From positions 117,458 through 181,457 of the forward strand of contig CBIMES010000002.1 in the NCBI GenBank assembly GCA_966243015.1: DNA of 64,000 nucleotides, read 5' to 3'. The stretch comes from an uncultured bacterium (lineage in GTDB: Bacteria > Patescibacteriota > Minisyncoccia > Phycocordibacterales > UBA6065). The position numbers and the translations under genes were made by a program. Positions 13,206 to 29,221 of this stretch are shown one piece after another. Below the pieces are notes generated by a model, which was not told the origin of the DNA, ran no database searches, and saw only the letters and a program-made list of their open reading frames with translations. The stretch's first letter is position 1; each line of letters opens with the position of its first letter.

Positions 13206-13240
13206 AGTGAGATATACTAATGTATAAGCACGAGACACAT

Positions 13241-15670: not shown

Positions 15671-15675
15671 GGAGG

Positions 15676-17949
15676 ATGAGAAAGCTCCTCTCTCCATACA
15701 ACCTTATAACGGTCTTGCTCGTTGGAGTGAGTGTGTTTGCCTTGCCCCAGTTTGCCCATGCGGCAATCTGGGACGGCATCCTCAACGGTCTCAATTTCGG
15801 CGCAAATTGGTTCTACGGCCTTATCGCCAAGGTGTTCTGGTGGGGAACCATTCCTCTGACCAGCTGGGTGCTCTGGCTCGTGGGAGTCATGATAGACGGC
15901 ATCATCGCCCTGTCTTCTGACCCGTCTTTCTACAACGCGCCCGCCATATCAGCGTCATGGGGGATAGTCCGCGACGTTTGTAACATGCTGTTCATATTCA
16001 TCCTCATCTACGAGGGAATACGAACCATTCTTAACCTCGGCAACATGGTGAGCGTGAAGACCACCATCGCAGGAGTCATCCTTGCGGCCGTATTCATCAA
16101 CTTCAGCCTCTTCGCGACCAAAGTCGTTATCGACGTCAGCAACATAACCGCAGCATGGTTCATACAGGGCGTTAAGAACGTCGGGGGTACGGAAAGCATC
16201 AGCGATGCAGTCGTCGCATCGCTTCAGATGAAGAAACTCGTCCAGAACAAGGACTACGGCAGGGGAGCGATGACCAAGGAGTCCTTTGTGGCGGGATTGG
16301 CGATGACCGTCCTCAACTGCGTGGCGATATACGTGATGTTCAAAGTCTTCTTCCTCCTTCTCGGAAGGCTCATCACCTTCATGTTCCTCCTCGTTACCGC
16401 ACCAATCGGCTTTGTCGGCCCCCTTCTGCCTCAGCTCAAGAAATACGCCGAGAAGTGGTGGAACGAACTGAACTCGATGGCCATAATGGCGCCAATGTTC
16501 TTCCTGATGCTCTATATCACCCTGTTCATTATCGATCAGGTGGACACCTTCGTGTTCGGAGGAGCGGGATCGGCAGACCCCGTGACCGGATCGAGCTTCG
16601 CCCCGACGAACTACATCATGTTCGCGATCATCATCGCCATGCTGCTCAAGGTACTTGAGATAACCGAGGAATACAGCGGCGAAATGGCAGGGAAGATAGG
16701 TGAGCTGTTCAAGAGCAGCGTGGGCGTGGCCCTCGGTGGCGTAACCGCTGTGGGAGGTGTCATCGGCCGACAGACCCTCGGAAGGGCCGCATTTAACATC
16801 ACTCAAGATGACAAGAAGATGGGCGCACTTCGATCAGAGGCGGCCACAAGCCTGTTCGGCAAAGTGAAGCTTGCCGCAGTTACCAAGGGCGCGTCATCGA
16901 GCTTTGATGCTCGAGCCACAACCGTCGGAGGAAAAGCGTTGGGTGCCTTCAATCCAAAAATAAGCGTTGCCGGTATCTCTGTTGACGCCTCTAAGGTTGG
17001 AAAGACCGAAAGCGGTGGATTTAAAGCTGGTGCAGAGGCATTCGCCAAGAAAGAGAAGGACTGGGCGGAGAAAAATCTCGGCAAGGGCGCAGCAGGGGAG
17101 ATCAATCGAATGCGATTCTCTGAGAGCATGCAGAAGGGAACCCTTCTCACGAATTACAACAAGCTCGCCAATGCTGGTGTTGGCAAGAACGCTTACAAGG
17201 ATGCCTATAGGGATATAGAGAAGGCCGCTCGAGACAACTTCCGAAAGAAGACACTTGAGGATGCAAAGAAGGGCACCAAGGACATCAGCAACAAGATCGT
17301 GGACGAACAGATGGCAATCTACCAGATGGAGGAGGCTATCAAGTCAAATAACAACGACCAGATTAACGCCGCTCTTGAAACAGAGAAGAATAGAATCGAG
17401 GGCATCTGGTCCGAGATGGAGAAAAATGCCCTTGAGAAAAACAAGGCCGCACATATCGAATACAGCCTCACTCAGGTGGAGAAGAGGGTTGCGGAGCCGG
17501 GTCCAGTCGGTGAAGCGGCAAGGGCAACCAAGACATCACTTGAAAAAGAGCTTGCTGATTTGAGGACAAATATGACCGCAGACGAAAAGAATAAGGCAAG
17601 CGAGGAGGCGGAAAAACTCAGATCATACAAAGATTACAAGGAGAAACAGGTCGATGCCGTTAAGTCTGCGATTGAGGAGTCAAACCCTGTCGCAAAGAAG
17701 GAACTCACCAAGGGAGTCATCGGGGTCATAAAGACCAAGAGGATTGGCGAGAGAGAGGAATTCAAAGATGAGGAGGGGAAGAAAAAGAAAGTCGCCCCTA
17801 AGGGAACCCTCAACTGGGAACTCGACAAGAAGAAAACCAGCCTCAAGGAGGCCCAGGAGGAACTCGATGCGATAGAAGGAAAGAAAGAGGAGAAGAAGGA
17901 GGAAAAGAAAGAGGAGAAGAAAGAAGAAGGGGATAGCAAAAAGAAATAA
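15676..17949 (+). CDS. VirB6/TrbL-like polytopic membrane protein with a long charged coiled-coil C-terminal tail
   Basis: GGAGG RBS 6-8 nt upstream. Signal/TM N-terminus, at least 6 predicted TM helices in the first 330 aa, then a roughly 400-aa Lys/Glu-rich tail ending in EEKKEEKKEEKKEEKKEE. It sits upstream of PrgI/VirB4 homologs. Confidence 0.5.
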   Translation: MRKLLSPYNLITVLLVGVSVFALPQFAHAAIWDGILNGLNFGANWFYGLIAKVFWWGTIPLTSWVLWLVGVMIDGIIALSSDPSFYNAPAISASWGIVRDVCNMLFIFILIYEGIRTILNLGNMVSVKTTIAGVILAAVFINFSLFATKVVIDVSNITAAWFIQGVKNVGGTESISDAVVASLQMKKLVQNKDYGRGAMTKESFVAGLAMTVLNCVAIYVMFKVFFLLLGRLITFMFLLVTAPIGFVGPLLPQLKKYAEKWWNELNSMAIMAPMFFLMLYITLFIIDQVDTFVFGGAGSADPVTGSSFAPTNYIMFAIIIAMLLKVLEITEEYSGEMAGKIGELFKSSVGVALGGVTAVGGVIGRQTLGRAAFNITQDDKKMGALRSEAATSLFGKVKLAAVTKGASSSFDARATTVGGKALGAFNPKISVAGISVDASKVGKTESGGFKAGAEAFAKKEKDWAEKNLGKGAAGEINRMRFSESMQKGTLLTNYNKLANAGVGKNAYKDAYRDIEKAARDNFRKKTLEDAKKGTKDISNKIVDEQMAIYQMEEAIKSNNNDQINAALETEKNRIEGIWSEMEKNALEKNKAAHIEYSLTQVEKRVAEPGPVGEAARATKTSLEKELADLRTNMTADEKNKASEEAEKLRSYKDYKEKQVDAVKSAIEESNPVAKKELTKGVIGVIKTKRIGEREEFKDEEGKKKKVAPKGTLNWELDKKKTSLKEAQEELDAIEGKKEEKKEEKKEEKKEEGDSKKK
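17875..17932 (+). repeat. Short tandem purine-rich repeat encoding (K/E)EEKK units at the 3' end of the VirB6-like gene
   Basis: gaggagaagaaggaggaaaagaaagaggagaagaaagaagaagg has GAR-GAR periodicity. Confidence 0.6.
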
Positions 17950-17951
17950 TC

Positions 17952-18611
17952 ATGGACAAAGAACTTCAAACCCGATTTGATTCGCTCCCTGCCGACATAC
18001 AGACGGCGCTTCAGTCGACTGACATCATCGAGAAACTCCAGGCCATCGGAAGAGCCCATGATCTGCACACCGATCAGCTTGGGGGACTGGAAGCATGTGT
18101 GAGCAGAATCATGCTCGGCATAGATAAGACCGATGATTTTGTCGAGAGCATTGAAAACAACCTTAATGTAACGACGGATGATGCCATAAACATAGCGACG
18201 GAGGTAAACACGACCATATTCCTCCCCGTCAGGGAATCCCTCATGAAAATGCAGGCCGCTGGAACAGAAACCCCCGCAATAAGCAACGAACCGACCGTCG
18301 ACGAACACCCCATGAAAGCGGACATCCTCGCCGAGATAGAGGATCCGAAGCCGGTGGCTCAGCCTATATCGTCGATACGACCCGCACCAACCCCCGCAAC
18401 CCCCGTAAACACAGCACTCCCGACAATTGAACCGTCACATCTTCCAACCACCGCATCTCAGCCGAAACCGACCCCGACATTCCAGACTCCGGCACCAAAA
18501 CCCCAGAGCTCCAGTGTCACCAACGAGTTCATAGCGGGGAAGATGACCGAGACCGTGAATATGCCGCCTCAGAAATACAGCGCAGACCCTTACAGGGAAC
18601 CGCTCAACTAG
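17952..18611 (+). CDS. Hypothetical soluble protein with a Pro/Thr-rich C-terminal half (locus member)
   Basis: The start is 3 nt after the upstream stop, suggesting translational coupling. No TM helix. PAPTPATP… proline-rich tail. Confidence 0.45.
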   Translation: MDKELQTRFDSLPADIQTALQSTDIIEKLQAIGRAHDLHTDQLGGLEACVSRIMLGIDKTDDFVESIENNLNVTTDDAINIATEVNTTIFLPVRESLMKMQAAGTETPAISNEPTVDEHPMKADILAEIEDPKPVAQPISSIRPAPTPATPVNTALPTIEPSHLPTTASQPKPTPTFQTPAPKPQSSSVTNEFIAGKMTETVNMPPQKYSADPYREPLN

Positions 18612-18619
18612 GCGAAAAT

Positions 18620-18651
18620 AAAAGGCTCAGTCCACTGAGCCTTTTATTTTT
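18620..18651 (+). terminator. Rho-independent terminator with an adjacent TATAAT -10 element
   Basis: AAAGGCTCAG-tccac-TGAGCCTTTT-ATTTTTG followed by TGTGTATAAT at 18651-18660. Confidence 0.7.
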
Positions 18652-18666
18652 GTGTATAATGAACTC

Positions 18667-19113
18667 ATGCGATTCCAGGTTCCTCAGTTCATCGAGGTGG
18701 AGGACAAGATCTTCGGCCCCCTCACCATCAAGCAGTTCATCTACCTCGTTGGAGGCGCGGGACTTTCCTTTATTGCCTACACTCTCATAGGCAACATATT
18801 CATCAGCGTCATCTTCATCCTGCCGATCATGGGCCTTTCGCTCGCCCTGGCGTTCTATAAGGTCAACAACAAGCCGCTCATCAACGTCATCGAGGCCGCA
18901 TTCAACTACTTCGTGAGCAACAAGCTCTATATCTGGAAGAAAATCGACAAGCCAATAGAAAATAAGGCCCGGGAGAACCCAGCAGGGGACCTGACCTCAA
19001 ACTTCTACATACCAAAGCTGTCTGACTCGAAGCTCAAGGATCTCACCTGGAGCCTCGACATCAAGCAGAGCGCGAACCCAGCGCAGAACCAACAGGGCAA
19101 GAAAACATTTTAG
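18667..19113 (+). CDS. PrgI-family (VirB3-like) small membrane protein
   Basis: MRFQVPQFIEVEDKIFGPLTIKQFIYLVGGAGLSFIAY… matches the PrgI family pattern (vP.dl...edKiffgLt.rQ..yl). It has two TM helices and sits immediately upstream of a VirB4 homolog, as prgI-prgJ does. The track ORF starts at 18652 (GTG). ATG 18667 is preferred and lies only about 6 nt after TATAAT, so the mRNA may be leaderless. Confidence 0.6.
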   Translation: MRFQVPQFIEVEDKIFGPLTIKQFIYLVGGAGLSFIAYTLIGNIFISVIFILPIMGLSLALAFYKVNNKPLINVIEAAFNYFVSNKLYIWKKIDKPIENKARENPAGDLTSNFYIPKLSDSKLKDLTWSLDIKQSANPAQNQQGKKTF

Positions 19114-19130
19114 GCGGTATACTATAGCTC

Positions 19131-19766
19131 ATGGCGCTTAACGCGAAGACAACACAGGAGTTCGTTCCGATAAAGGAAATCCGACAGGGAATCGTCATCC
19201 TCCGCGACGACTCTCTGCGAGGCGTCGTCATGGCGTCATCGCTCAACTTCGCCCTCAAATCGGCCGACGAGCAGCAGTCAATCATCTTTCAATTCCAGAA
19301 CTTCATCAACTCGCTCGACTTCTCGGTGCAGATCTTTATCCAGTCTCGTAAGCTCGACATCAGGCCATACATCGCCCTTCTCGAGAACAGGCTTCGCGAG
19401 CAGATGAGCGATCTCCTCAAGATCCAGACGCGCGAGTACATCGAGTTCGTGAAGAACTTCACCGAGAACTCGAACATCATGACAAAGACCTTCTTCATCG
19501 TCGTACCGTACAGCCCGACGGTCGTCTCGAAGGGAAGCGTGCCGAACCCGCTCGGCAAGAAGAAGACGGGGGAGGAGACCGCCGAGCGAAGACTCGAGCT
19601 CTTCGAGGAGCATCGCAGCCAGCTCGAGCAGCGTATCAGCGTCGTCACCCAAGGTCTTAGCCGCTGCGGAATCCGCAGCGTCGAGCTGGGAACGGAGGAG
19701 ATCGTCGAGCTCTTCTACAAGATCTTCAATCCGGGCGACACCGAGAAGCCTATACCTCTCAACTAA
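19131..19766 (+). CDS. VirB4/TrbE/PrgJ-like ATPase, N-terminal domain fragment (211 aa)
   Basis: TQEFVPIKEIRQGIVILRDDSLRGVVMASSLNFALKSADEQQSIIFQFQNFINSLDFSVQIFIQSRKLDI is the characteristic N-terminus of Gram-positive-type VirB4 proteins. It ends at TAA 19764-19766, 4 nt before the next ATG. Confidence 0.7.
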   Translation: MALNAKTTQEFVPIKEIRQGIVILRDDSLRGVVMASSLNFALKSADEQQSIIFQFQNFINSLDFSVQIFIQSRKLDIRPYIALLENRLREQMSDLLKIQTREYIEFVKNFTENSNIMTKTFFIVVPYSPTVVSKGSVPNPLGKKKTGEETAERRLELFEEHRSQLEQRISVVTQGLSRCGIRSVELGTEEIVELFYKIFNPGDTEKPIPLN

Positions 19767-19770
19767 ACAC

Positions 19771-21576
19771 ATGGGAATCTTCGATTTTCTAAAAAAGAAA
19801 GAGAATAACATCAACATCTCCCCGGTTCTTCCGCAGGAGATTTACGAGGCGGGCGTGCTCGAGCTCAAGGACGTTATCGCGCCGTCGGCCCTCAAGGTCA
19901 CGCCGCGCGAGCTTAATCTCGGAGACAAAATCGTCCGAAGCTTCTTCGTCATCTCATACCCTCGATATCTCTCAGAGTCATGGTTCGCACCGATCATCAA
20001 CCTCGACAAGGTCTTCAACATTTCCATATTTGTCCACCCCGTCGACACCGCTCGAGTTCTCCGCCAGTTCCAGAAGAAAGTGGCCGAGGTGCAGAGCCAG
20101 ATCTCCATCAGGGAGCAGAAGGGCCTCGTCCGCGACCCGATGCTCGACACCGCGTACCAGGATCTCGAGGGCCTGCGCGACCAGCTCCAGCAGGCGCAGG
20201 AGAAGCTCTTTGACGTGGGCATCTACATCTCAATCTACGCCGACAGCGACGCAGAGCTCGATAAGACTGAGAGCGAGATCAAGTCGATTCTCGAGTCAAA
20301 GCTCGTGTACGTAAAGCCGGCGCTCTTCCAGCAGGAACAGGGGTACCGCAGCAACCTACCGACGGCAAACGACGAGCTCCTTGTCCATTCCAAGCTTAAC
20401 TCAAGCCCTCTTTCGTCACTTTTCCCGTTCATATCCTTCGACCTCACCTCTGACAAGGGAATCCTCTACGGCATCAACAGGCACAACTCGTCGCTCGTGC
20501 TCTTCGATCGCTTCTCGCTCGAGAACTACAACTCGATTACCTTCGCGAAGTCAGGTTCGGGTAAGTCATACGCCACCAAGCTCGAGATTCTCCGAACGCT
20601 CATGTTCGACACCGAGGTGATCGTCATCGACCCGGAGAGGGAATACGAGTACCTTGCCGAGGCAACGGGAGGAAAGTACTTCAACATCTCCCTCAACTCC
20701 GAGCATCACATCAACCCGTTCGACCTGCCAATCCCGCGCGAGGACGAGTCGACCGCCGACGTGCTTCGCTCGAACATCATCAACCTCGTAGGACTCTTCC
20801 GCATAATGATGGGAGGCCTGACCCCCGAGGAAGACGCGCTCATCGATAAGGCGATCACCGAAACCTACGCGCTCAAGGACATCACGCCTGACTCAGACTT
20901 CAGGAACACCGAACCGCCGCTCCTGTCTGACTTCGAGCTCGTGCTTGCCGGCATGGAGGGAGGGGAGTCGCTCGTGCAGAGGCTGACCAAATACACCAAG
21001 GGAACCTGGTCTGGCTTCATCAACAGGCCGACAAACGTCGACATTAACGCGAAGTTCATCGTCTTCTCGCTCCGAGACATGGAGGAGGAGCTCAAGCCCG
21101 TCGCGATGTACATCGTGACCCACTACATCTGGAACGCGGTGCGCAAGAACCTCAAGAAGCGCCTGCTCGTCATCGACGAGGCGTGGTGGATGATGAAGTC
21201 GGACGACACCGCGTCGTTCCTCCTCGGACTCGCCAAGCGAGGCCGAAAGTACTTCCTCGGACTGGCGACCATTACCCAGGACGTGGACGACTTCCTCAAG
21301 TCGCCGTACGGAATGCCGATTATCACCAACTCGTCGATACAGATGCTGCTCAAGCAGTCCCCATCGTCGATCGACAAGCTTCAGACGGTCTTCAACCTCA
21401 CGGAAGAGGAAAAATACCTCCTTCTCGAGTCAGACGTGGGAGAGGGAATCTTCTTCGTGGGACTTAAGCACGTGGCCATCAAGATTATCGCCTCGTACAC
21501 CGAGGACCAAATCATCACCTCTGACCCTTCGCAGATTCTCGCCATCAAGGAAGCGAAAAGAAACCTTCAGGGGTAG
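19771..21576 (+). CDS. VirB4/TrbE/PrgJ-like ATPase, ATPase portion (601 aa)
   Basis: …LKDVIAPSALKV…YPRYLSESWF…, Walker A FAKSGSGKSYA, Walker B LLVIDEAWWMM, and C-terminal …GLATITQDVDDF… form the VirB4 (CagE_TrbE_VirB) architecture. Together with 19131..19766 it totals about 812 aa, typical of a single VirB4. Confidence 0.8.
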   Translation: MGIFDFLKKKENNINISPVLPQEIYEAGVLELKDVIAPSALKVTPRELNLGDKIVRSFFVISYPRYLSESWFAPIINLDKVFNISIFVHPVDTARVLRQFQKKVAEVQSQISIREQKGLVRDPMLDTAYQDLEGLRDQLQQAQEKLFDVGIYISIYADSDAELDKTESEIKSILESKLVYVKPALFQQEQGYRSNLPTANDELLVHSKLNSSPLSSLFPFISFDLTSDKGILYGINRHNSSLVLFDRFSLENYNSITFAKSGSGKSYATKLEILRTLMFDTEVIVIDPEREYEYLAEATGGKYFNISLNSEHHINPFDLPIPREDESTADVLRSNIINLVGLFRIMMGGLTPEEDALIDKAITETYALKDITPDSDFRNTEPPLLSDFELVLAGMEGGESLVQRLTKYTKGTWSGFINRPTNVDINAKFIVFSLRDMEEELKPVAMYIVTHYIWNAVRKNLKKRLLVIDEAWWMMKSDDTASFLLGLAKRGRKYFLGLATITQDVDDFLKSPYGMPIITNSSIQMLLKQSPSSIDKLQTVFNLTEEEKYLLLESDVGEGIFFVGLKHVAIKIIASYTEDQIITSDPSQILAIKEAKRNLQG

Positions 21577-21624
21577 GGGAGCGGTGGATTGGCGCGCGGG
21601 GTTTCGTGCTACAATATACTCGTC

Positions 21625-22623
21625 ATGCTTCTCAAAAGGATATCTCTTATCTTTGCTTTTGTCGGTGTACTCCTCTCATGCTCCTTTGCCCATGCTCAGT
21701 CTATTCCAGGCATACAGAATCCTCTCGTCGTGAGCGTCATACCGACCGAACCGAGGGCCAATCAGACGGTCTATATCGGCATTCAGAGCTACAGCCTTGA
21801 TCTCGACAAGGCTCTCATCACTTGGTACGTAGACGGCAAGGAAACATCGAGCGGGGTCGGCCTCAAGGAATTCAGGGTACTCGCCGGACCGTCGGGTTCG
21901 ACCAAGACGGTCGACGTAAAGGTGGCAACCGTGGGCACAGGAACCTTCTCCGATACCGTCGTCATCAGGCCGGCAGACGTTGGCCTCCTCTGGGAATCTG
22001 ACACCTACACCCCTCCTTTCTACCAGGGAAAGGCTCTTCATTCTTACAACGGCTCCTTCAAAGTTACCGCGTTGCCAGAGCTCTACACTTCGGCGGGCGC
22101 AAAGATTGATGCGAAGGACTTGATCTACACCTGGAAAAAGAACGGTGAGATTCAGGGTGCCGCATCTGGATACGGCAAGAACACCTATATCGGCAGCCAG
22201 ACGAGCTACCTCAGGGAAGGGGAGGATATCTCCGTTGAGGTGTCAGCGCCGCGAGACAACGTGGTCGCCTCAAACAGCATCCTCATCACGCCAGCGGTGC
22301 CTTACGTATCGTTCTACGAGAAGAGCCCTCTCTACGGAATCATCTACGAAAAGAGCCTTCGCAACAGGACCAGCCTGACCAACGAGGAGGTCTCGATCAT
22401 CGCCGAGCCATTCTTCTTCTCAATTCCAAACCGAGACTCCTCGAACCTCTCGTATACCTGGACCCTCAACGGCAGCCCCCTCCCTGACTTCTCGGGAGAG
22501 AGTCTCATGACGCTCCGAAAGGCGGGCGGGGAAGCGGGAAGGGCTGATCTTCGCGTCGTCCTGCAGAACAACATGAAGCTCCTTCAGGGCGCCTCGCAGA
22601 ACCTAACCATTTTCTATGAATAA
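21625..22623 (+). CDS. Hypothetical secreted beta-rich protein (locus member)
   Basis: Signal peptide MLLKRISLIFAFVGVLLSCSFAHAQS. No TM helix afterwards. No family assignment. Confidence 0.45.
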   Translation: MLLKRISLIFAFVGVLLSCSFAHAQSIPGIQNPLVVSVIPTEPRANQTVYIGIQSYSLDLDKALITWYVDGKETSSGVGLKEFRVLAGPSGSTKTVDVKVATVGTGTFSDTVVIRPADVGLLWESDTYTPPFYQGKALHSYNGSFKVTALPELYTSAGAKIDAKDLIYTWKKNGEIQGAASGYGKNTYIGSQTSYLREGEDISVEVSAPRDNVVASNSILITPAVPYVSFYEKSPLYGIIYEKSLRNRTSLTNEEVSIIAEPFFFSIPNRDSSNLSYTWTLNGSPLPDFSGESLMTLRKAGGEAGRADLRVVLQNNMKLLQGASQNLTIFYE

Positions 22624-23821
22624 AACCCGAGCACTCGCCATCGCCTCAGCAAGCATCGTCACGCTCTTCGCGGGCTGGGCAACTGTCGCGTCGGCACAGA
22701 CAACCGAATACGTTCCCCTCACGACGGTTCCCGGCCTCTTCAAGCAGGGAAGCTCGACCAACCCCGTCACCATCATCAAGGGAATCTACGGACTGGCCAT
22801 CGGCATCGGCAGCGTCATCGCCACTGTCATGCTCATCATCGCCGGCTTCGAGTATATGTACCAGGAGTCAATCACGGGAAAGTCACAGGCAAAGGAGCGC
22901 ATCACCAATGCGTTTCTCGGTCTCTTGGTCATCCTTGGATCGTACATACTCCTCCGAACTATCAACCCAGCACTTGTAGACTTCAACCTCACACTCCAGG
23001 GTGGCAGCAATCGACTCAAGGGACTGATTGCCGACAAGGCATATGACGATCTAAGGGAAAGGCAGAAGGCCTTGCAGGAAGATCAGACCGCCATCAACAA
23101 GCTCAAGGCAAATGGCGTGGAAATGGAGAAGCTGATTGAGCAGAAAGAGGACACCATGCGCGGCTACGACTGCGAGAACGAGGATAAGGCTGATTGCGAG
23201 AGAATCGAGAAAGAGATCGCCGAGCTTGAAACGCGAGTAAAAGAGAACACGGACAACATCGCCGCAACGCAAATAGAGCAGGGAAAGGGGATTGCCTCGA
23301 CCTATGTGTACGAACTCCTCGAAACCAGGTATTGGGAGCTCGCCGGCAAGCTCAGACAGGACAACGGTCAGGGGGAGCTTGAGTTCGACGAATTCCTTCA
23401 GGCAGCCTCAGCCGCATACAAGAGCTCAATCGACGGCGTGGAGAAACAGCTGGTCGCCATAAAAGCCGTACAGACGAACGATGCCGGGATCCTGAAACAA
23501 AAGACGGATACCATCAGAGACCTCGAGAACGAGAAAAAATATCTCGCCCTCGCCGCTACGTACGTCATTTGGCAGAACAGCTATGACAATAACGGCCTCG
23601 ATCTCACGGATCTAGCGAACAGCATCAAGTACAGGACTGATGCCTACACAAAGAAGCTCAAGGAGGCGGGTTTCAGCAACGAGTTCATCGAGGAGCGCGT
23701 AAAACGCGACAGAACCAATCTCATAACCGCATTCTCGATGTCTGAGGAGGTACAGGAAGACTGCGCATCAAATACCGATGTGCTCCCGGCCGACTACGCA
23801 CAGCTCTGCTCAAACGCATAA
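22616..23821 (+). CDS. VirB2/TrbC-like T4SS pilin-like protein with a roughly 270-aa C-terminal coiled-coil extension
   Basis: Signal peptide (…VASA|Q) is followed by two hydrophobic helices (IYGLAIGIGSVIATVMLIIAGFEYMY and ITNAFLGLLVILGSYILLRTI), the classic T4SS pilin topology. The C-terminal part is coiled-coil-like. The start overlaps the upstream gene by 8 nt. Confidence 0.5.
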   Translation: MNKTRALAIASASIVTLFAGWATVASAQTTEYVPLTTVPGLFKQGSSTNPVTIIKGIYGLAIGIGSVIATVMLIIAGFEYMYQESITGKSQAKERITNAFLGLLVILGSYILLRTINPALVDFNLTLQGGSNRLKGLIADKAYDDLRERQKALQEDQTAINKLKANGVEMEKLIEQKEDTMRGYDCENEDKADCERIEKEIAELETRVKENTDNIAATQIEQGKGIASTYVYELLETRYWELAGKLRQDNGQGELEFDEFLQAASAAYKSSIDGVEKQLVAIKAVQTNDAGILKQKTDTIRDLENEKKYLALAATYVIWQNSYDNNGLDLTDLANSIKYRTDAYTKKLKEAGFSNEFIEERVKRDRTNLITAFSMSEEVQEDCASNTDVLPADYAQLCSNA

Positions 23822-23827
23822 AACAAC

Positions 23828-25060
23828 ATGTCGAAAAAAACATTCACGCTCTTCATCATAGTACTCCTGGGAATCATCGCCTTCCTCGGCTGGTTCTTTT
23901 TCTTCCGCGCGAATGAGTCAACGCTTCCCGGTGACCCCAACCAGCCGACCGACCTCTTTCCCTTTGGGCAGGGGAGCACAACCCCTGATGGAAACAACAC
24001 GGGGCAAACGGGCAGCTCGACGGGGCAGATAGACATCTCGGGTGACACCCCACGCCTTCCTCGACTAAGACAAATCTGGCGAGACCAGACCGCAGGCGCC
24101 ACGTTCTTTCCAGGCACGGGAACCACGACAAGCGTGAGGTTCGTCGACAGAGCAACGGGTCACATCTACGAGTCTCCTATCGAGGCGACGGGGGAGACCA
24201 AGATATCGAACGTCACCATCCCACAGGTGCACGAAGCGCTTTGGGCATCAAACGGAAACGAGCTCATCTTCCGCTACCTCAGGAGCGATTCGATGACGAT
24301 ACAGTCGTTCTATGGAACGCTCGCCACATCGAGCGCCACTACAACCATGACGGTGGAAGGTTACTTCTTGCCCGCAAACATCCGCGACATCTCGGTATCA
24401 GGCGACAGGATTCTCTATTTCAACCCAGCCGTTCAGATCGGAAGCCTCGTCGACGCACGCGTCGACGGCACAGGAAGACGCGTGGTCATGAGCTCCGAGG
24501 CACGAGACTGGTCTCTCTCATACACCAACACAAAAACCGCATTCCTCGAAACCAGGCCAAGCGGTCTCGTAAAGGGATTCGGCTACGCCCTTAACCTCGC
24601 CACGGGAGCGACTTCAAAAATAGCTGGTGACATACTCGGTCTCACCGGAACCATAAACCCAGCAGGGGACAGAGCGCTTATGTCAGCGCAGGAGGGCGGA
24701 AGCATCGTCACGGCAGGCTACGACATGACGTCAAAGAGGGCCTCCACCCTTTCCATCAAAACCCTTTCCGACAAATGCGTGTGGAGCAGGAAAAAGGCCG
24801 AGATGGCATACTGCGCAGTGCCCTCAAACATTCCGTCGGGAACATATCCTGATGACTGGTATCGAGGCGACACGAGCTTCTCCGATCGACTCTGGACCGT
24901 CGACCTCTCGACAGGGGAGACCGATCTCATCATGGACCCATCCTATGAGACCGGCCAGAGCATGGACATCATGAAAATCAGCGTGGACAGCGGGGAGGAG
25001 TACATTACATTCACCAACAAGAAGGACATGAGCCAGTGGCTGCTGAGGATCGAGGAATAA
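23828..25060 (+). CDS. Hypothetical N-terminally anchored extracytoplasmic beta-rich protein (last locus gene)
   Basis: TM helix FTLFIIVLLGIIAFLGWFFFF, then a Gly/Thr-rich linker and a roughly 330-aa domain. A bidirectional terminator follows. Confidence 0.45.
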   Translation: MSKKTFTLFIIVLLGIIAFLGWFFFFRANESTLPGDPNQPTDLFPFGQGSTTPDGNNTGQTGSSTGQIDISGDTPRLPRLRQIWRDQTAGATFFPGTGTTTSVRFVDRATGHIYESPIEATGETKISNVTIPQVHEALWASNGNELIFRYLRSDSMTIQSFYGTLATSSATTTMTVEGYFLPANIRDISVSGDRILYFNPAVQIGSLVDARVDGTGRRVVMSSEARDWSLSYTNTKTAFLETRPSGLVKGFGYALNLATGATSKIAGDILGLTGTINPAGDRALMSAQEGGSIVTAGYDMTSKRASTLSIKTLSDKCVWSRKKAEMAYCAVPSNIPSGTYPDDWYRGDTSFSDRLWTVDLSTGETDLIMDPSYETGQSMDIMKISVDSGEEYITFTNKKDMSQWLLRIEE

Positions 25061-25073
25061 GAAAGCCCCAAAA

Positions 25074-25105
25074 GAAAGCCGCATCGATCGATGCGGCTTT
25101 CTTTT
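25074..25105. terminator. Bidirectional terminator between the T4SS-like locus and yidC
   Basis: AAAGCCGCATCG-atcg-ATGCGGCTTTCTTTTTC, with a T-run on the opposite strand as well. Confidence 0.75.
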
Positions 25106-25106
25106 T

Positions 25107-25862
25107 CTATCTAACCTTCACCGCCAAATTCTCCTTCGCCTCCTTCTCCCGCGCCATCTGCCGTCGGATGTACAGCTCCTGCCCGATCATGAACAGGTTG
25201 CTCGTCACCCAGTACAGGGCGAGGGCCGAGGCCACGTGGTAGGCGATGAAGAGGATCATGATAGGGAAGACGTACTTCATCTGAGTCTGCATGTTGCGGG
25301 CGAAGTCCTCCTGGAAGTTGCCGTTGCCGGTCTTGGGGGCAGCCTTTGGTATCGAGAGCCTTATCTGGAAGTACTGGGAGACCGCCGCGAGAACCGCGAG
25401 AGCGAAGCTTTTGGTACCCATGTCTATGAGACCAAGGAAGTTCATGTTAACAACCTCAGGAACCTTAACGAACGAGTAGAGGAGACTCGGGTCAGGCGCC
25501 GAAATGCCTGACGAATAAAAGATTCGATACAAGGCGAAGAAGATAGGAAGCTGGAGAAGGATAAGGAAGATGCCGGCAAACGGGTTTATGCCCTTTGCCT
25601 TGTAGAAGGCCATGACCTGAAGCGCCTGCGCCTGCCGATCGTCCTTGTACTTCTCCTTGATGGCATTCATCTCGGGCTCGTACATCTTGAGGGCAACCTG
25701 GGTGCGGGCAGACTTTCTCGAAAGAGGGAAGAGGATGACCTTAACGATAACCGTGAAGAGGATAATGACGACGCCTGCGTCGAGGAAGGGGAGGTGGCCG
25801 GCGAGGAATACAAGACCGTTATAGAGGGGCTCGTAGATGAACGTAGTATAAAGATAATGCAT
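25107..25862 (-). CDS. yidC: Membrane protein insertase YidC/Oxa1 (short form)
   Basis: 251 aa and multi-TM. Its position downstream of rnpA and rpmH is the conserved rpmH-rnpA-yidC arrangement. Hydrophobic core motifs are typical of the 60-kDa IMP family. Confidence 0.8.
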   Translation of the reverse strand: MHYLYTTFIYEPLYNGLVFLAGHLPFLDAGVVIILFTVIVKVILFPLSRKSARTQVALKMYEPEMNAIKEKYKDDRQAQALQVMAFYKAKGINPFAGIFLILLQLPIFFALYRIFYSSGISAPDPSLLYSFVKVPEVVNMNFLGLIDMGTKSFALAVLAAVSQYFQIRLSIPKAAPKTGNGNFQEDFARNMQTQMKYVFPIMILFIAYHVASALALYWVTSNLFMIGQELYIRRQMAREKEAKENLAVKVR

Positions 25863-25915
25863 ATGATTATTGTGCGGGCTAAGCCATAGTAGCCTATTTC
25901 AGACCCTTACTCAAT

Positions 25916-26242
25916 CTACGCGAGACCAGCTTTTTTCAACGTAGCCTGTATATCAGAGGAAACCGCTTCAGGGGAAGCGGCTAGACACTCCTTCTTAGGG
26001 AGAATCATGGCAAATACCGGTGTTTTAAGGCTTTTCTTTGCGGACCTGAGGGCAAGATACACCTTTCGGCGCACGGAATTCCTGTCGACGGCCCTGGCTG
26101 CCACTTTTTTGGACACAGGCACGGCGAACTTCGCCCTCTCGGCGGGAACGAAGCGCAAAGAAAGAAGCGTCCCGAAGACGCTTTTTCCTTGAGAGAGAGC
26201 TGCTACCTCTTTTGTGGTGAGACGGTCAGCCTTCCTGAGCAT
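25916..26242 (-). CDS. rnpA: Ribonuclease P protein component
   Basis: 108 aa basic protein. …FAVPVSKKVAARAVDRNSVRRKVYLALR… matches the RnpA RNR motif region. It lies between rpmH and yidC. Confidence 0.8.
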   Translation of the reverse strand: MLRKADRLTTKEVAALSQGKSVFGTLLSLRFVPAERAKFAVPVSKKVAARAVDRNSVRRKVYLALRSAKKSLKTPVFAMILPKKECLAASPEAVSSDIQATLKKAGLA

Positions 26243-26245
26243 GGG

Positions 26246-26383
26246 TTAGATCTTAACAATCTTCTTTCGACCCTTCTGTCGTCGTCGGACGAGCACCTTC
26301 TTGCCGGTAGGGGAGTTCTTTCGGGCAAGGAAGCCATGGGCTCGAGCGCGCTTCCTGTTCTTTGTTTTGTATACGATTGCCAT
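26246..26383 (-). CDS. rpmH: 50S ribosomal protein L34 (not in the supplied ORF track because it is under 60 aa)
   Basis: The reverse strand translates to MAIVYKTKNRKRARAHGFLARKNSPTGKKVLVRRRQKGRKKIVKI, the L34 signature. It is directly upstream of rnpA and divergent from dnaA. Confidence 0.85.
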   Translation of the reverse strand: MAIVYKTKNRKRARAHGFLARKNSPTGKKVLVRRRQKGRKKIVKI

Positions 26384-26503
26384 AAATTGGGATTTCTAAA
26401 AGATATGTTCACATATTATTAACATACTTAGCGCCTGTTCACAAGTAGCGCGCCTCGTACCACGCTATATACTTACAGGAACCATAACGATCCGGTAACT
26501 CAC

Positions 26504-27847
26504 ATGGACAACAAGAAACTCTGGGAAAGCGTGTTAGGTGCACTGGAACTTCAGGTATCCAAGGCAACCTTCAGCACCTGGCTGAGAGAGACCCACATCC
26601 ACAAACAGGATGACGGCGTCATCTACCTCTCGGTACCGAGTATCTTCGCCAAGGACTGGCTCTCCAACAAGTTCCACAAGGTTATCCTCAAATGCCTCAG
26701 GGACTTCGGCAACGACGTGAGGTCGCTCGAATACGTCATCGCCAAGGCCCCCGAGAAAAAGCAGGAGGTCGAGGAACCAAAGAAGCCGGCACCGACCTAC
26801 GAGCTACCCCTCCAGGATCTCTATATAAGCAAAGAAGACAACCTCAACCCGAAATACACCTTCGACACCTTTGTCATCGGTCCCTTTAACGAGCTCGCCC
26901 ACGCCGCGGCGCAGGCGGTAATGAAGAATCCCGGCATCGCCTACAACCCACTCTTCATCTACGGGGACACGGGAAGAGGGAAGACCCACCTCATCCAGGC
27001 CGTCGGCAACTACATCAAGCACAACCACCCCTCAAAGAAGGTGTTCTACATCACCTCAGAGCGCTTTGCCGTCGATTACATGAACTCGCTTCAGCTTGGA
27101 AAGGCGAACCAGTTCAAGGAAAAGTACCGAAAGTACGACGTCCTCATCATGGACGACGTGCAGTTCTTCTCGAGCAAGGAGAAGTCACAGGAGGAGTTCT
27201 TCCATCTCTTTAACACCCTCCACGAGAACAACAAGCAGCTCATCTGCTCTTCGGACAAGCACCCGAACCACATCCCCGACCTCGAAGACCGCATAAAATC
27301 ACGCTTCAGCGCGGGAATGATTGTCGACGTGTCCGCCCCAGACCACGACTCACGCCTCGCCATCCTCAGAAACAAGACCCTCACGCAGAGAATCAACCTC
27401 TCGGACGAGACCATCGAATTTCTCGCCAAGACCGTGGAGGGAAACGTGCGAGAACTCGAAGGCATCGTGAACTCCATCGCCATGCAGACCCATATCCGGG
27501 GAAGGGAGCTCAACCTCATCGAGATCAAGAATCTCATCAAGAACAGCACGAAGCCGAAGAAAACTGTGTCTATCAAGGACGTGGTGAAGGTCGTCTGCGA
27601 CTTTTACAACATAAACGAGAATTCCGTATACGAGAAAACCCGAAAAAAGGAGGTCGTTAAGCCACGACAGGTCATCATGTACATCCTCAGGGAGGACCTG
27701 AACATCTCATACCCTTCAATTGGCGAGAAAATGGGAGGCCGCGACCACACCACCGTCATACATTCTTGCGAAAAGATAAAGGAGGATATAAAGTCTGACC
27801 AAACGCTCATACAGGAGGTCAATCACATCCGATCCCTCATCTCATAA
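26504..27847 (+). CDS. dnaA: Chromosomal replication initiator protein DnaA
   Basis: N-terminal domain, AAA+ Walker A (NPLFIYGDTGRGKTHL), sensor motifs, and C-terminal DNA-binding helix-turn-helix (…VVKPRQVIMYILRED…). 447 aa. Confidence 0.95.
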   Translation: MDNKKLWESVLGALELQVSKATFSTWLRETHIHKQDDGVIYLSVPSIFAKDWLSNKFHKVILKCLRDFGNDVRSLEYVIAKAPEKKQEVEEPKKPAPTYELPLQDLYISKEDNLNPKYTFDTFVIGPFNELAHAAAQAVMKNPGIAYNPLFIYGDTGRGKTHLIQAVGNYIKHNHPSKKVFYITSERFAVDYMNSLQLGKANQFKEKYRKYDVLIMDDVQFFSSKEKSQEEFFHLFNTLHENNKQLICSSDKHPNHIPDLEDRIKSRFSAGMIVDVSAPDHDSRLAILRNKTLTQRINLSDETIEFLAKTVEGNVRELEGIVNSIAMQTHIRGRELNLIEIKNLIKNSTKPKKTVSIKDVVKVVCDFYNINENSVYEKTRKKEVVKPRQVIMYILREDLNISYPSIGEKMGGRDHTTVIHSCEKIKEDIKSDQTLIQEVNHIRSLIS

Positions 27848-28120
27848 CTGGGGATAAACTTGTTAATAAGTGGGTATAAGCTTGTGGGTAAGTTTATACA
27901 CAGACTGTGAATTGCCTGGGGATGGAATCTAACAAACTGTGGATGATTTTGAAGGATGGGGAATAGCCCCTGTTTCTATTCGCGAGAACTCCACAGGAAC
28001 ACGTCCTTATAATGCCATCAAACCCTTACAGATAAACGTTTTATGGGTTATACACATATCCCCAGTGATTATAGAAATAGTAGTTATTCTTTAAATATAT
28101 AAGAGAGATATACTAGGAAC
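27848..28120. promoter_or_regulatory. oriC: Candidate oriC: AT-rich dnaA-dnaN spacer with multiple DnaA-box-like 9-mers and an AT-rich DUE
   Basis: One-mismatch variants of TGTGGATAA/TTATCCACA occur at about 27849 (TGGGGATAA), 27885 (TGTGGGTAA), 27894 (TTATACACA), 27935 (TGTGGATGA) and 28045 (TTATACACA). An A/T-rich stretch (atagaaatagtagttattctttaaatatataagag) lies at about 28070-28112. The rpmH-rnpA-yidC | dnaA-dnaN context supports it. Confidence 0.6.
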
Positions 28121-29221
28121 ATGAAAATCGAGTGCATCAAGGAAAAACTGATTGAGGCGGTTTCCAAGGCTGACAGACTGACGGGGAAGAACCTCTCTCT
28201 TCCCGTGCTCTCGTGCGTCAGCATCAAGACCGACGAGAATTCCCTCCTTGTACGCGCGACAAATCTTGATTGCGGTATCGAGATCAGGATCCCCGCCAAA
28301 GTCGACGCTACGGGCGAAATTGCCGTTCAGGGAGGCATCCTCACCTCTCTTCTCTCTGGCCTCCCGAAGGAGAAGAACGTGACCCTTGAGCTTAAGGAGG
28401 GGAACGTGCTCGTCTCCACCTCTTCCAATAGAACGCTGGTTAAGGCCTTTCCCGCCGAGGATTTCCCCTCGATTCCCAAGATTGAGGCTTTCAAGAGCCT
28501 TGAGCTGAGCCCGAAGACCCTCCTCAAGGGATTTAAGTCGGTTGTTTACAGCGCATCTGTTTCGACTGTTAAGCCTGAGCTTGCGAGCGTGTACGTCTAC
28601 AAGGACGAGGCTGACCTTGTGTTCGTGTCCACCGACTCGTTCAGGCTCGCGGAGAAGAGGCTTAAGATTAAAGAGACCCTCGACTTCCCGTCGGTAATCA
28701 TTCCCGCCAAGAATGTGACCGACATCGTCAGGTCTCTCGAGGCAGCGACTGACGACGTGCGCGTCATTTTCGACAAGAATCAGATCGCTTTCGAGTCGAA
28801 GGACACCTATCTCATGTCCCGCGTCATTGACGCCACCTTCCCAGACTACAAGAACATCATCCCCAAGGCATTCGTGACCGAGGTTGTCGTGCTTAAGCAG
28901 GATTTCATTGATTCTCTCAAGACGTCTCATATCTTTGCGGACAAATTCAATCTCGTGAACATCAAGGCCCTTCCCTCGAAGAAAACCTTTACCATATCAA
29001 CCAAGAACAGTGACGTGGGTGAGTACGTAAACACCATCGATTCGAGCGTCACGGGCGAGGACGTGGATATAAACTTTAACTACAAGTACATCTCAGACTG
29101 CTTCCAATCGATCGACGCCGACAGCCTCTCCCTTTCGATCGCGGGCATGAACAGGCCTCTCGTCATCAGGGGTGTCTCCGACAGGTCGTTCATGTGTCTT
29201 GTGATGCCAATGAACAGATAG
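28121..29221 (+). CDS. dnaN: DNA polymerase III beta sliding clamp
   Basis: 366 aa with three-domain clamp architecture and the typical MKIECIKEKLIEAVSKADR… N-terminus. It follows dnaA. Confidence 0.9.
   Translation: MKIECIKEKLIEAVSKADRLTGKNLSLPVLSCVSIKTDENSLLVRATNLDCGIEIRIPAKVDATGEIAVQGGILTSLLSGLPKEKNVTLELKEGNVLVSTSSNRTLVKAFPAEDFPSIPKIEAFKSLELSPKTLLKGFKSVVYSASVSTVKPELASVYVYKDEADLVFVSTDSFRLAEKRLKIKETLDFPSVIIPAKNVTDIVRSLEAATDDVRVIFDKNQIAFESKDTYLMSRVIDATFPDYKNIIPKAFVTEVVVLKQDFIDSLKTSHIFADKFNLVNIKALPSKKTFTISTKNSDVGEYVNTIDSSVTGEDVDINFNYKYISDCFQSIDADSLSLSIAGMNRPLVIRGVSDRSFMCLVMPMNR

What the first reader, a model, noticed from the sequence alone, without database searches (positions are those of the whole stretch)
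22616..23821. T4SS-pilin-like protein with a long coiled-coil C-terminal extension
Residues 1-130 have the VirB2/TrbC pilin layout: a cleavable signal peptide followed by two hydrophobic helices separated by a short polar loop. The protein then continues for about 270 aa of heptad-like, charged sequence (…LQEDQTAINKLKANGVEMEKLIEQKEDT…). Canonical T4SS pilins are about 100-130 aa, so a pilin fused to a long coiled coil is unusual. It could form a fibrous surface appendage or a ruler/tether.
Basis: partly seen in the sequence, partly recalled or inferred. Interest (0 to 1): 0.55.

Follow-up and report, generated by a model that had tools for sequence, protein, structure and literature searches.

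The report
Patescibacterial T4SS pilin with helical-bundle tail
This gene encodes the only pilin-like subunit of a type IV secretion system beside the replication origin of an ultra-small (Patescibacteria) bacterium, and unlike textbook pilins it carries a fast-evolving, disulfide-stapled helical domain of about 265 residues that should sit outside the cell; the secretion system is already described, but this tail is not.

Summary
The ORF at 22616-23821 (+, 401 aa) is real. Its N-terminal third matches Pfam PF18895 T4SS_pilin above the gathering score. It has a signal peptide with an A-S-A cleavage site, then two hydrophobic helices joined by a short basic loop.

It lies in a tight operon with PrgI/VirB3, a split VirB4 and a VirB6-like protein, 2.7 kb from dnaA. 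This is the chromosomal Patescibacteria T4SS described in 2025 (PMC12102498).

The 266-residue tail is helical, acidic and has few prolines. AlphaFold2 models it with pLDDT about 90-97 in most of the domain as a folded multi-helix bundle built on a 50+54-residue hairpin. It is not one long coiled-coil rope.

The tail has 4 Cys, and all 30 close homologues have 2 or 4, including a terminal C-x(2-14)-C. Its median identity is about 15%, against about 70% for the pilin module, yet dN/dS is only 0.10-0.16.

The extension is not rare in this family. Of the 153 nearest single-domain relatives, 125 have at least 100 residues after the pilin domain. The experimentally studied Saccharibacteria pilins are short (126-138 aa).

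Verdict: a new variant of a known kind. Whether it polymerises or is only anchored in the membrane is unresolved.

The parts
22616..22696 (+). Signal peptide, residues 1-27. It has a basic n-region (MNKTR), a hydrophobic core and an A-S-A|Q cleavage site.
   Evidence: Hydropathy. The A-x-A motif is conserved in the alignment. This is the fast-evolving part of the N-terminal region, at 41% identity to the orthologue.
22697..22771 (+). Mature N-terminal segment, residues 28-52, with the conserved Y-x-P-L-T-x-x-P-G ... T-N-P-V motif. It is predicted to be extracytoplasmic.
   Evidence: Invariant or near-invariant columns Y32, P34, L35, P39, G40, T48, N49, P50 and V51. The topology is inferred from signal-peptide cleavage.
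22772..22861 (+). Hydrophobic helix 1 of the pilin hairpin, residues 53-82.
   Evidence: Hydropathy maximum of 2.4. AlphaFold2 helix 50-86. Lies within the PF18895 match to residues 47-107.
22862..22906 (+). Short polar, basic loop, residues 83-97 (QESITGKSQAKERIT). It is predicted to be cytoplasmic, or lumenal in a pilus.
   Evidence: Conserved E84, S85, K89, S90, A92, K93 and I96. The location is inferred by analogy with VirB2/TraA.
22907..22966 (+). Hydrophobic helix 2 of the pilin hairpin, residues 98-117.
   Evidence: Hydropathy. AlphaFold2 helix 92-116.
22967..23020 (+). Conserved post-membrane segment (P-x-L-V-x-F-N-L) and Gly-rich linker (GGSNR), residues 118-135. It could be a hinge or a processing site.
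   Evidence: L120, V121, F123, L127, G130 and G132 are at least 90% conserved. pLDDT is below 50 at residues 124-132.
23021..23818 (+). C-terminal helical extension, residues 136-401. It is built on a 50+54-residue pair of long helices, is acidic, evolves fast and is predicted to be extracytoplasmic.
   Evidence: AlphaFold2 gives block-mean pLDDT of about 86-97 over most of the domain. No specific fold or sequence relative was found. Identity to homologues has a median of 15%. dN is 0.38, against 0.023 for the pilin module. dN/dS is 0.10-0.16.
23171..23197 (+). Cys186 and Cys194 pair, in the loop that joins the two long helices.
   Evidence: Cys positions. The loop at 183-190 lies between helices 133-182 and 191-244. 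The pair is conserved in P0002 and P0003. The disulfide is inferred.
23762..23809 (+). Terminal Cys383 and Cys398 pair. This is the family-wide C-x(2-14)-C motif at the extreme C-terminus.
   Evidence: All 30 homologues have 2 or 4 Cys in the tail, always including this terminal pair. C398 is invariant.
21589..22623 (+). Upstream 344-aa secreted or anchored protein of unknown function. Its stop codon overlaps the pilin ATG by 8 nt.
   Evidence: The overlap TATGAATAA. N-terminal hydrophobic segment. The position is conserved in five related loci.
19771..21576 (+). VirB4-type ATPase (C-terminal, ATPase-bearing part).
   Evidence: NCBIfam conju_CD1110 scores 377 bits, above the 325-bit cut-off. 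Pfam P-loop_TraG E 1.7e-26.
19131..19766 (+). TrsD-like protein, equivalent to the N-terminal domain of VirB4 encoded as a separate gene.
   Evidence: Weak NCBIfam hits, all below their cut-offs, to the N-terminal region of VirB4_plasma (4e-12) and to TrsD (9.5e-5). Orthologues carry PF26593 TraC-like.
18652..19113 (+). PrgI/VirB3-like protein.
   Evidence: Pfam PF12666, E 2.4e-10, 41.3 bits, above the 27-bit cut-off.
15676..17949 (+). Polytopic membrane protein that is the VirB6/TrbL-like candidate.
   Evidence: A signal peptide plus at least 6 hydrophobic segments. The orthologue in L007 has a weak PF04610 TrbL hit.
23828..25060 (+). Downstream 410-aa membrane-anchored protein of unknown function and last gene of the operon.
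   Evidence: It starts 6 nt after the pilin stop codon. N-terminal anchor. Synteny is conserved. No Pfam or PDB match.

Best explanation
This is the VirB2-like (PF18895) subunit of the chromosomal, origin-proximal T4SS of a Paceibacteria-type Patescibacterium, in an extended form.

Proposed mechanism:
1. Sec export and signal-peptide cleavage leave the N-terminus outside.
2. The two hydrophobic helices insert as a hairpin, with the basic loop on the cytoplasmic side.
3. The 266-residue C-terminal domain therefore lies outside the membrane. There it folds into a helical domain about 7-8 nm long, stapled by two disulfides.
4. The highly conserved hairpin module is the part that docks into, or is polymerised by, the VirB3/VirB4/VirB6 machine.
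5. The fast-diverging helical domain is the outermost, exposed part. It either decorates a VirB2-type filament radially or projects through the thin wall.
6. The helical domain is the element most likely to contact the host cell or the environment.

Shown here: family membership, operon context, hydrophobic layout, helical-domain prediction, Cys pattern and rate asymmetry. Inferred: topology, disulfides, polymerisation and the host-contact role.
For: Family and layout:
- PF18895 above its gathering score.
- A signal peptide plus two hydrophobic helices with a basic loop.

Operon and genome context:
- Tight operon with 8-nt and 6-nt junctions.
- PrgI/VirB3, TrsD-like, VirB4 and a VirB6-like protein in the same operon.
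- rpmH-rnpA-yidC / dnaA-dnaN immediately downstream. This is the arrangement described for Paceibacteria T4SS in PMC12102498.
- It is the only pilin-domain ORF in the 64-kb window and within 6-10 kb on either side of the gene (less where the contig ends) in all six related loci.
- Identical synteny is seen in loci whose pilin genes are 27-63% identical to the window protein, measured over the full length.

Extracytoplasmic tail:
- An even number of Cys (2 or 4) in the tail of all 30 homologues, with an invariant terminal pair.
- No Cys downstream of the signal peptide within the pilin module (columns from residue 28 on); the Cys counted in the first ~135 residues of five homologues fall in the signal peptide.

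Tail as a real, folded, selected domain:
- pLDDT of about 86-97 over most of the domain.
- dN/dS of 0.10-0.16 in a close pair.
- The window protein and its 63%-identical orthologue are both 401 aa and align without indels, despite 48% replacement in the tail.

Exposure and low constraint of the tail:
- dN of 0.38, against 0.023 for the pilin module and 0.01-0.28 for 12 neighbouring genes.

Importance of related pilins:
- PF18895 pilins in the T4SS locus of S. epibionticum are essential for epibiotic growth (PMC10633639).
Against: - No direct evidence exists that any PF18895 protein polymerises.
- The link to VirB2 is weak at sequence level. The protein has no PF04956 hit. The PDB profile search puts Agrobacterium VirB2 first, but only at E 0.35. 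hhalign probability is 22%.
- The fold search with the isolated hairpin model was uninformative.
- A domain of about 30 kDa on every subunit would be unprecedented for a VirB2-type filament, and packing was not modelled.
- dN/dS is below 1, so the divergence may reflect low constraint, not host-driven diversification.
- Topology was inferred by rule. No dedicated signal-peptide or transmembrane predictor was available.
Confidence: 0.55

Rival explanations
1. The protein is a non-polymerising, membrane-anchored T4SS component. The pilin-like hairpin only anchors it in, or next to, the VirB3/VirB4/VirB6 membrane complex. The rigid helical domain acts as a fixed-length stalk or spacer that reaches through the wall or S-layer.
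For: - Tail length is kept within 208-278 residues across 30 homologues while the sequence drifts to about 15% identity. The window protein and its orthologue differ by no indel. Length and helicity, not sequence, appear to be what is conserved.
- Monoderm T4SSs are generally described as lacking pili (PMC12102498, PMC12857230).
- The same pilin module is fused to enzymes (YkuD, peptidase M15) that need anchoring and not polymerisation.
Against: - The extracellular flanks of the hairpin (Y-x-PLT-x-x-PG, TNPV, INPxLVxFNL) are far more conserved than a simple anchor would need.
- The gene is the sole VirB2-like gene of the locus, so if any filament is made it must use this protein.
Confidence: 0.27
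2. The protein is a pro-pilin. The C-terminal domain is cleaved at the conserved Gly-rich linker (about residues 128-135). This releases a canonical pilin of about 100 residues, by analogy with the C-terminal trimming of RP4 TrbC and Ti VirB2 before cyclisation (from established knowledge). The helical domain would then be an assembly chaperone or a co-secreted factor.
For: - The motif L127-x-x-G130-x-G132-R/K is conserved at the exact domain boundary, with very low pLDDT.
- Canonical-length relatives of the same pilin domain exist, at 116-160 aa.
Against: - A 266-residue pro-piece with conserved disulfides that is under purifying selection is far larger than any known pilin pro-peptide.
- No TraF-like or other dedicated peptidase was recognised in the operon.
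- The mature N-terminal residue is not conserved, which argues against head-to-tail cyclisation.
Confidence: 0.1
3. The protein is not a T4SS component. It is a generic bitopic or hairpin envelope protein whose match to the pilin family comes from hydrophobic composition, and it lies in the operon by chance.
For: - The Pfam score is only 4 bits above threshold.
- Structural searches do not recover VirB2/TraA.
Against: - Relatives score up to E 9.8e-28 on PF18895.
- The polar motifs outside the membrane helices are conserved.
- The gene keeps the same position two genes after virB4 in all five loci examined. It keeps that position also in a genome of the published survey, GCA_000505065.1, where VirB4 is gene 535 and VirB2 is gene 537.
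Confidence: 0.03

Closest known systems
VirB2-like pilins (Pfam PF18895) of the Patescibacteria chromosomal T4SS (Quinonero-Coronel et al. 2025, PMC12102498; Wang et al. 2023, PMC10633639)
   Same: - Same Pfam family.
- Same locus type: PrgI/VirB3, TrsD and VirB4 with a VirB6-like protein, close to dnaA/dnaN/rnpA/ksgA. No relaxase or coupling protein was recognised among the ORFs scanned.
- The gene sits two positions after virB4, as in genomes of the published survey.
   Different: - The essential S. epibionticum pilins are 126-138 aa and occur as an array of several divergent paralogues.
- Here a single gene encodes 401 aa, with a 266-residue helical domain.
- Neither paper mentions C-terminal extensions. 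[quoted passage not shown]
Canonical conjugative pilins VirB2 (Ti), TrbC (RP4) and TraA (F)
   Same: - Signal peptide, two hydrophobic helices and a short basic connecting loop.
- Encoded next to VirB3/VirB4.
- Agrobacterium VirB2 is the top hit of a PDB-wide profile search, though not significant.
- 8 of 127 relatives, and two S. epibionticum pilins, also hit PF04956 weakly.
   Different: - No PF04956 hit for this protein.
- Three times longer.
- Found in a monoderm host.
- Head-to-tail cyclisation (VirB2, TrbC) cannot take place with the tail attached.
- No VirB5, VirB7-11 or VirB1 homologues were recognised in the operon.
Small pilin-like proteins of monoderm conjugation systems (NCBIfam Mbov_0395 family of Mycoplasma ICEs)
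   Same: Weak similarity over the hairpin (E 3.2e-4). The neighbouring VirB4 also resembles the Mycoplasma ICE VirB4 family.
   Different: The score of 20.3 bits is below the 40-bit cut-off. Those proteins are about 80 aa and have no tail.
Generic antiparallel helical bundles (STAT coiled-coil domain, spectrin-like repeats, SNARE/SMC-type coiled coils)
   Same: Long antiparallel helices with a charged, Ala/Leu/Glu/Lys/Gln-rich composition. These are the best but non-significant structure and profile matches.
   Different: No significant match was found (best Foldseek E 0.04, TM 0.2-0.27). The resemblance is one of fold class only, not of family.

Membership tests
Pfam PF18895 T4SS_pilin | Profile match at or above the curated gathering score | tested here: met
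   30.8 bits against a 26.6-bit cut-off, E 3.2e-7, residues 47-107. 109 of 127 relatives also match, with a best E of 9.8e-28.
Patescibacteria chromosomal T4SS locus (PMC12102498) | virB4 of the monoderm (FATA-like) type clustered with PrgI/VirB3, TrsD and VirB6-like genes | tested here: met
   VirB4 scores 377 bits on conju_CD1110. The 211-aa neighbour hits TrsD only below the NCBIfam cut-off (E 9.5e-5, 22.3 bits against 200), supported by PF26593 TraC-like in its orthologues. PrgI scores 41.3 bits. A polytopic 757-aa protein has an orthologue with a weak TrbL hit.
Patescibacteria chromosomal T4SS locus (PMC12102498) | Chromosomal position next to the replication origin genes | tested here: met
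   yidC, rnpA and rpmH on the minus strand, then dnaA and dnaN, start 46 nt after the operon. ksgA lies upstream. Synteny is identical in four other genomes.
Patescibacteria chromosomal T4SS locus (PMC12102498) | No relaxase or coupling protein in the cluster | tested here: inconclusive
   None was found among the 30 ORFs scanned against Pfam, but not every ORF of the window was scanned.
VirB2/TrbC pilins (PF04956) | Profile match to PF04956 or significant similarity to a solved VirB2/TraA pilin | tested here: not met
   No PF04956 hit at E<=0.01. The PDB profile search ranks VirB2 8cue/8exh first, but at E 0.35 and 0.74. hhalign probability is 22%. Foldseek with the hairpin model does not list any pilin.
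VirB2/TrbC pilins (PF04956) | Signal peptide followed by a two-helix hydrophobic hairpin with a short basic loop | tested here: met
   Hydropathy and AlphaFold2 helices 50-86 and 92-116. The loop contains K89, K93 and R95.
VirB2/TrbC pilins (PF04956) | Small mature size (about 70-100 residues) | tested here: not met
   The mature protein is predicted to be 374 residues.
VirB2/TrbC pilins (PF04956) | Polymerises into a lipid-containing helical filament | not testable with these tools
   No multimer modelling or experimental data are available.
Canonical coiled coil | Sustained heptad (3.5-residue) hydrophobic periodicity over a long uninterrupted helix | tested here: not met
   Fourier power at period 3.5 is weak (at most 0.97) in every 42-residue window. 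AlphaFold2 breaks the tail into eight helices.
VirB5/TraC-type pilus-tip adhesin (as an identity for the tail) | Structural or sequence similarity to VirB5/TraC | tested here: not met
NCBIfam pLS20_p028 conjugation transmembrane protein | Score at or above the curated cut-off | tested here: not met
   20 bits against a 150-bit cut-off. The pLS20 protein itself is 974 aa and lies between the VirD4-like gene and a DUF5592 gene. tblastn against plasmids found nothing.

The most novel reading that the evidence does not exclude
The PF18895 hairpin may be a general display-and-polymerisation scaffold in Patescibacteria. In Paceibacteria-type genomes, every subunit of the T4SS filament would carry a hypervariable helical domain of about 30 kDa. 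This would give a 'bottle-brush' conjugative-type pilus whose outer coat is the host-recognition surface.

The same C-terminal fusion point is used elsewhere in the family. There it carries peptidoglycan enzymes and up to about 11 tandem pilin domains. The array of short divergent pilins in Saccharibacteria and the single long-tailed pilin here would then be two solutions to the same need for surface variability.
Probability: 0.2. Interest if true: 0.7.

Novelty: new variant of a known kind. Interest (0 to 1): 0.45.

Why it matters
[quoted passage not shown] Its pilin genes are essential as well (PMC10633639, PMC12857230). What the system transports, and whether it builds a pilus in a monoderm, are open questions.

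In a large Paceibacteria lineage the only pilin-like gene of the locus encodes a protein dominated by an exposed, rapidly diverging helical domain. Any model of a simple VirB2 tube therefore has to be revised for these organisms. The tail also becomes a concrete candidate for the host-contact determinant.

There is a practical point for genome surveys. Surveys that treat VirB2 homologues as small proteins will mis-describe most of this subfamily.

Tried and rejected
- **PDB sequence profile with the whole family.** This returned only generic coiled-coil proteins such as CT398, SNARE, UspA1 and SMC, which I treat as compositional matches.
- **Structural test of VirB2 membership.** I modelled the isolated hairpin (pLDDT 70.5) and ran Foldseek against PDB. 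No hit was better than E 5 and no pilin was listed. A two-helix hairpin is too simple for this test to mean anything.
- **pLS20_p028 as an architectural analogue.** I rejected this. The hit is 20 bits, over the transmembrane region only. The pLS20 protein is 974 aa and sits beside the VirD4-like gene. tblastn against 72,556 plasmids found nothing.
- **Separately encoded tail.** The single-sequence search re-found only the protein itself and its orthologue. The profile search re-found only pilin-fused family members. The profile search did not even recover all of its own input sequences, so this negative result is weak.
- **Second, short pilin gene.** Narrow and broad pilin-domain HMMs against all six-frame ORFs of the window and of seven loci found none.
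- **Positive selection on the tail.** I rejected this at whole-domain level, because dN/dS is 0.10-0.16. dS is saturated in the window/L001 pair. Site-wise tests were not possible.
- **Common origin of all tails.** hhalign links the tails into three groups with near full-length collinear matches, but not across the groups. Extreme divergence and domain replacement cannot be told apart.
Full report
**1.

The ORF 22616..23821 on the + strand encodes 401 residues.

- Its ATG overlaps the stop codon of the preceding gene by 8 nt (TATGAATAA). The next gene starts 6 nt after its stop codon.
- Hydropathy shows three hydrophobic segments, at residues 6-25, 50-82 and 95-121.
- The first segment ends in V-A-S-A|Q. 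This A-x-A motif is conserved in the family, and I read it as a signal-peptidase I site.
- The other two segments are joined by a 15-residue polar loop with three basic residues.
- Pfam PF18895 (T4SS_pilin) matches residues 47-107 at 30.8 bits, above the 26.6-bit gathering score.
- The remaining 266 residues are 33% charged, with 54 acidic and 35 basic residues, one proline and four cysteines.

**2. Genomic context**

The gene is the ninth of ten tightly packed + strand genes spanning 12246-25060.

*Recognisable T4SS parts:*
- a polytopic 757-aa protein whose orthologue has a weak TrbL/VirB6 hit;
- PrgI/VirB3;
- a 211-aa TrsD-like protein that corresponds to the N-terminal domain of VirB4, supported by below-threshold NCBIfam hits and by PF26593 TraC-like in its orthologues;
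- a 601-aa VirB4 ATPase, at 377 bits on the NCBIfam CD1110 family.

*Other members of the operon:*
- Four further proteins (319, 816, 344 and 410 aa) each have an N-terminal signal or anchor segment.
- Two of them carry adhesion-type domains: a below-threshold TSP3 repeat hit in the 319-aa protein and an F5/8 type C domain in the 816-aa protein.

*Flanking genes:*
- Immediately downstream lie yidC, rnpA and rpmH on the minus strand, followed by dnaA and dnaN.
- ksgA lies upstream.
- The rest of the window is housekeeping, including RuvB, PolA, Fpg, a Mur ligase and a PilB-type ATPase.

This is the chromosomal, origin-proximal T4SS described for Paceibacteria and other Patescibacteria by Quinonero-Coronel et al. 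2025 (PMC12102498). In that survey PF18895 hits are counted as VirB2. At least one genome there has the same order, with VirB4 as gene 535 and VirB2 as gene 537.

The relatives come from Candidatus Paceibacterota, Candidatus Taylorbacteria and unclassified Patescibacteria metagenome-assembled genomes.

**3. The family**

Thirty close homologues are 340-413 aa long and share the architecture.

- Synteny is identical in five loci examined, whose pilin genes are 27-63% identical to the window protein over the full length.
- A pilin-domain HMM finds exactly one such ORF in the 64-kb window. It finds one in each of the six related loci, which hold 6-10 kb on each side of the gene, less where the contig ends. 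This long protein is therefore the only VirB2-like gene found near the system.
- The pilin module (residues 32-135) has a median identity of 68-73%. The tail has 15%.
- Against the orthologue in L001, the pilin module has dN 0.023 and the tail has dN 0.38. The tail value is the highest among 13 genes compared. The two proteins are both 401 aa and align without gaps.
- In a closer pair (L006 and L007), dN/dS is 0.01 for the pilin module and 0.10-0.16 for the tail. The tail is therefore a selected protein domain under much weaker constraint, not a pseudo-sequence. Domain-wide positive selection is not seen.
- All 30 tails contain 2 or 4 Cys and always include a terminal C-x(2-14)-C. Downstream of the signal peptide, the pilin module contains no Cys. 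The one or two Cys counted in the first ~135 residues of five homologues lie in the signal peptide. This fits an oxidising, extracytoplasmic location for the tail.

**4. Structure**

AlphaFold2 with the 30-sequence alignment gives mean pLDDT 77 and pTM 0.61.

- The hairpin helices are 50-86 and 92-116. The linker at 124-132 is disordered.
- The tail is modelled with block-mean pLDDT of about 86-97 over most of residues 151-370, as helices 133-182, 191-244, 257-283, 290-322, 330-350, 355-375, 377-385 and 392-400.
- Cys186 and Cys194 lie in the loop between the two 50-residue helices. Cys383 and Cys398 bracket the last two short helices.
- The heptad periodicity is weak.
- The tail is best described as a folded helical bundle about 7-8 nm long built on a pair of long helices, not a fibrous coiled coil. 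The length is inferred from the helix lengths, and the packing of the helices was not checked because coordinates could not be read.
- No specific structural or sequence relative was found.
- hhalign links the tails of the 30 homologues into three groups by near full-length collinear matches, but not across the groups.

**5. How unusual is the extension?**

A phmmer scan of 1.84 billion representative proteins with residues 28-135 found 14,465 clusters at E<=1e-3 and 2,257 at E<=1e-10.

- Among the 168 sequences in hand, 153 have a single pilin domain. The tail after that domain has a median of 215 residues, and 125 of the 153 have at least 100 residues.
- Most of these tails are helix-type (rich in Ala, Glu, Leu, Lys and Gln, with few Pro or Gly) and carry two Cys.
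- Others are Cys/Gly/Pro-rich globular domains. They include a YkuD L,D-transpeptidase and a peptidase M15.
- Fifteen proteins contain 2 to about 11 tandem pilin domains.
- This sample is biased toward relatives of the query, so it does not describe PF18895 as a whole.
- The essential pilins of Southlakia epibionticum are 126-138 aa. [quoted passage not shown]
- I found no paper in the searchable library that mentions extended PF18895 pilins.

**6. Mechanism**

*Shown:* family membership, operon membership, hydrophobic layout, helical-bundle prediction, Cys pattern and rate asymmetry.

*Inferred:*
- Cleavage of the signal peptide places the N-terminus outside. Two membrane passes then place the tail outside as well.
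- In VirB2/TraA filaments both termini face the exterior and the loop lines the lumen (established knowledge). If this module polymerises in the same way, each subunit would project its bundle radially.
- The strong conservation of the extracellular flanks of the hairpin (Y-x-PLT-x-x-PG, TNPV, INPxLVxFNL) argues for conserved protein-protein contacts, either with the machine or with neighbouring subunits.
- The drifting tail is the exposed part.

My preferred reading (0.55) is a T4SS surface element whose conserved hairpin is handled by the VirB3/VirB4/VirB6 machine and whose tail is displayed outward.

I cannot separate a decorated filament from a non-polymerising stalk or spacer (0.27). I also cannot exclude cleavage at the conserved Gly-rich linker (0.10).

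**7. Comparison and membership**

- The protein is a member of PF18895 and of the published Patescibacteria T4SS locus type.
- It does not itself meet PF04956 (VirB2/TrbC). The link is indirect: 8 of 127 relatives and two S. epibionticum pilins hit PF04956 weakly, and Agrobacterium VirB2 is the top but non-significant hit of a PDB-wide profile search.
- The weak NCBIfam hits to pLS20_p028 and Mbov_0395 are far below their cut-offs. The pLS20 protein is a 974-aa protein encoded next to the VirD4-like gene, so it is not an analogue of this architecture.

**8. Verdict**

The system and the pilin family are known. The long helical tail on the sole pilin of the locus is an undescribed but widespread variant. 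I score interest at 0.45. The finding is concrete and bears on an active question, namely what the essential Patescibacteria T4SS builds. It is not categorically new, and its function remains inferred.

Noticed in passing
Proteins P0098, P0164, P0046, P0039, P0056, P0138 and others: Fifteen relatives carry 2 to about 11 tandem PF18895-like pilin domains in one polypeptide. P0098 (618 aa) has four near-complete domains, each at E 1e-17 to 1e-21. P0138 (1775 aa) has 11. These are concatenated pilins, or polytopic proteins built from pilin hairpins.
   Followed up: partly
Proteins P0031, P0033 and several of P0065-P0168: The same pilin module is fused at its C-terminus to peptidoglycan enzymes. 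These include a YkuD L,D-transpeptidase (E 1.6e-13), a Peptidase_M15_4 (E 7.7e-13) and a protein that its source names D-Ala-D-Ala carboxypeptidase. Many Cys/Gly/Pro-rich tails end in an HWHV or HFSVY motif that Pfam does not capture. Such fusions might supply the VirB1-type wall-remodelling function that the published survey found missing near most loci.
   Followed up: partly
window 19131-19766 and 19771-21576 (+): VirB4 is split into a 211-aa TrsD-like protein (weak, below-threshold hits to the N-terminal region of VirB4 models) and a 601-aa ATPase. The split is conserved in all related loci that include this region.
   Followed up: partly
window 12246-15670, 21589-22623 and 23828-25060 (+): Four operon proteins with N-terminal signal or anchor segments have no assigned T4SS role. 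They are a 319-aa protein with a below-threshold TSP3-repeat hit, an 816-aa protein with an F5/8 type C (discoidin-like) domain, a 344-aa protein and a 410-aa protein. All four are syntenic in relatives and are possible adhesins or envelope parts of the system.
   Followed up: partly
window about 25100-29200: This is a classical replication-origin neighbourhood: yidC, rnpA (25916-26242) and rpmH (26246-26383) on the minus strand, then dnaA (26504-27847) and dnaN (28121-29221). AT skew changes sign near 28 kb.
   Followed up: partly
window 36323-38008 (-): A PilB-type T2SSE ATPase with an MshEN domain (E 1.3e-119). A type IV pilus or competence machinery is therefore also encoded about 12 kb from the T4SS operon.
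   Followed up: no
window 6681-7640 (-) and 45351-46586 (+): A LysM plus peptidase M23 protein and an Amidase_3 protein lie within the window. They are candidate wall hydrolases that could serve the T4SS, since the operon has no VirB1 homologue.
   Followed up: no
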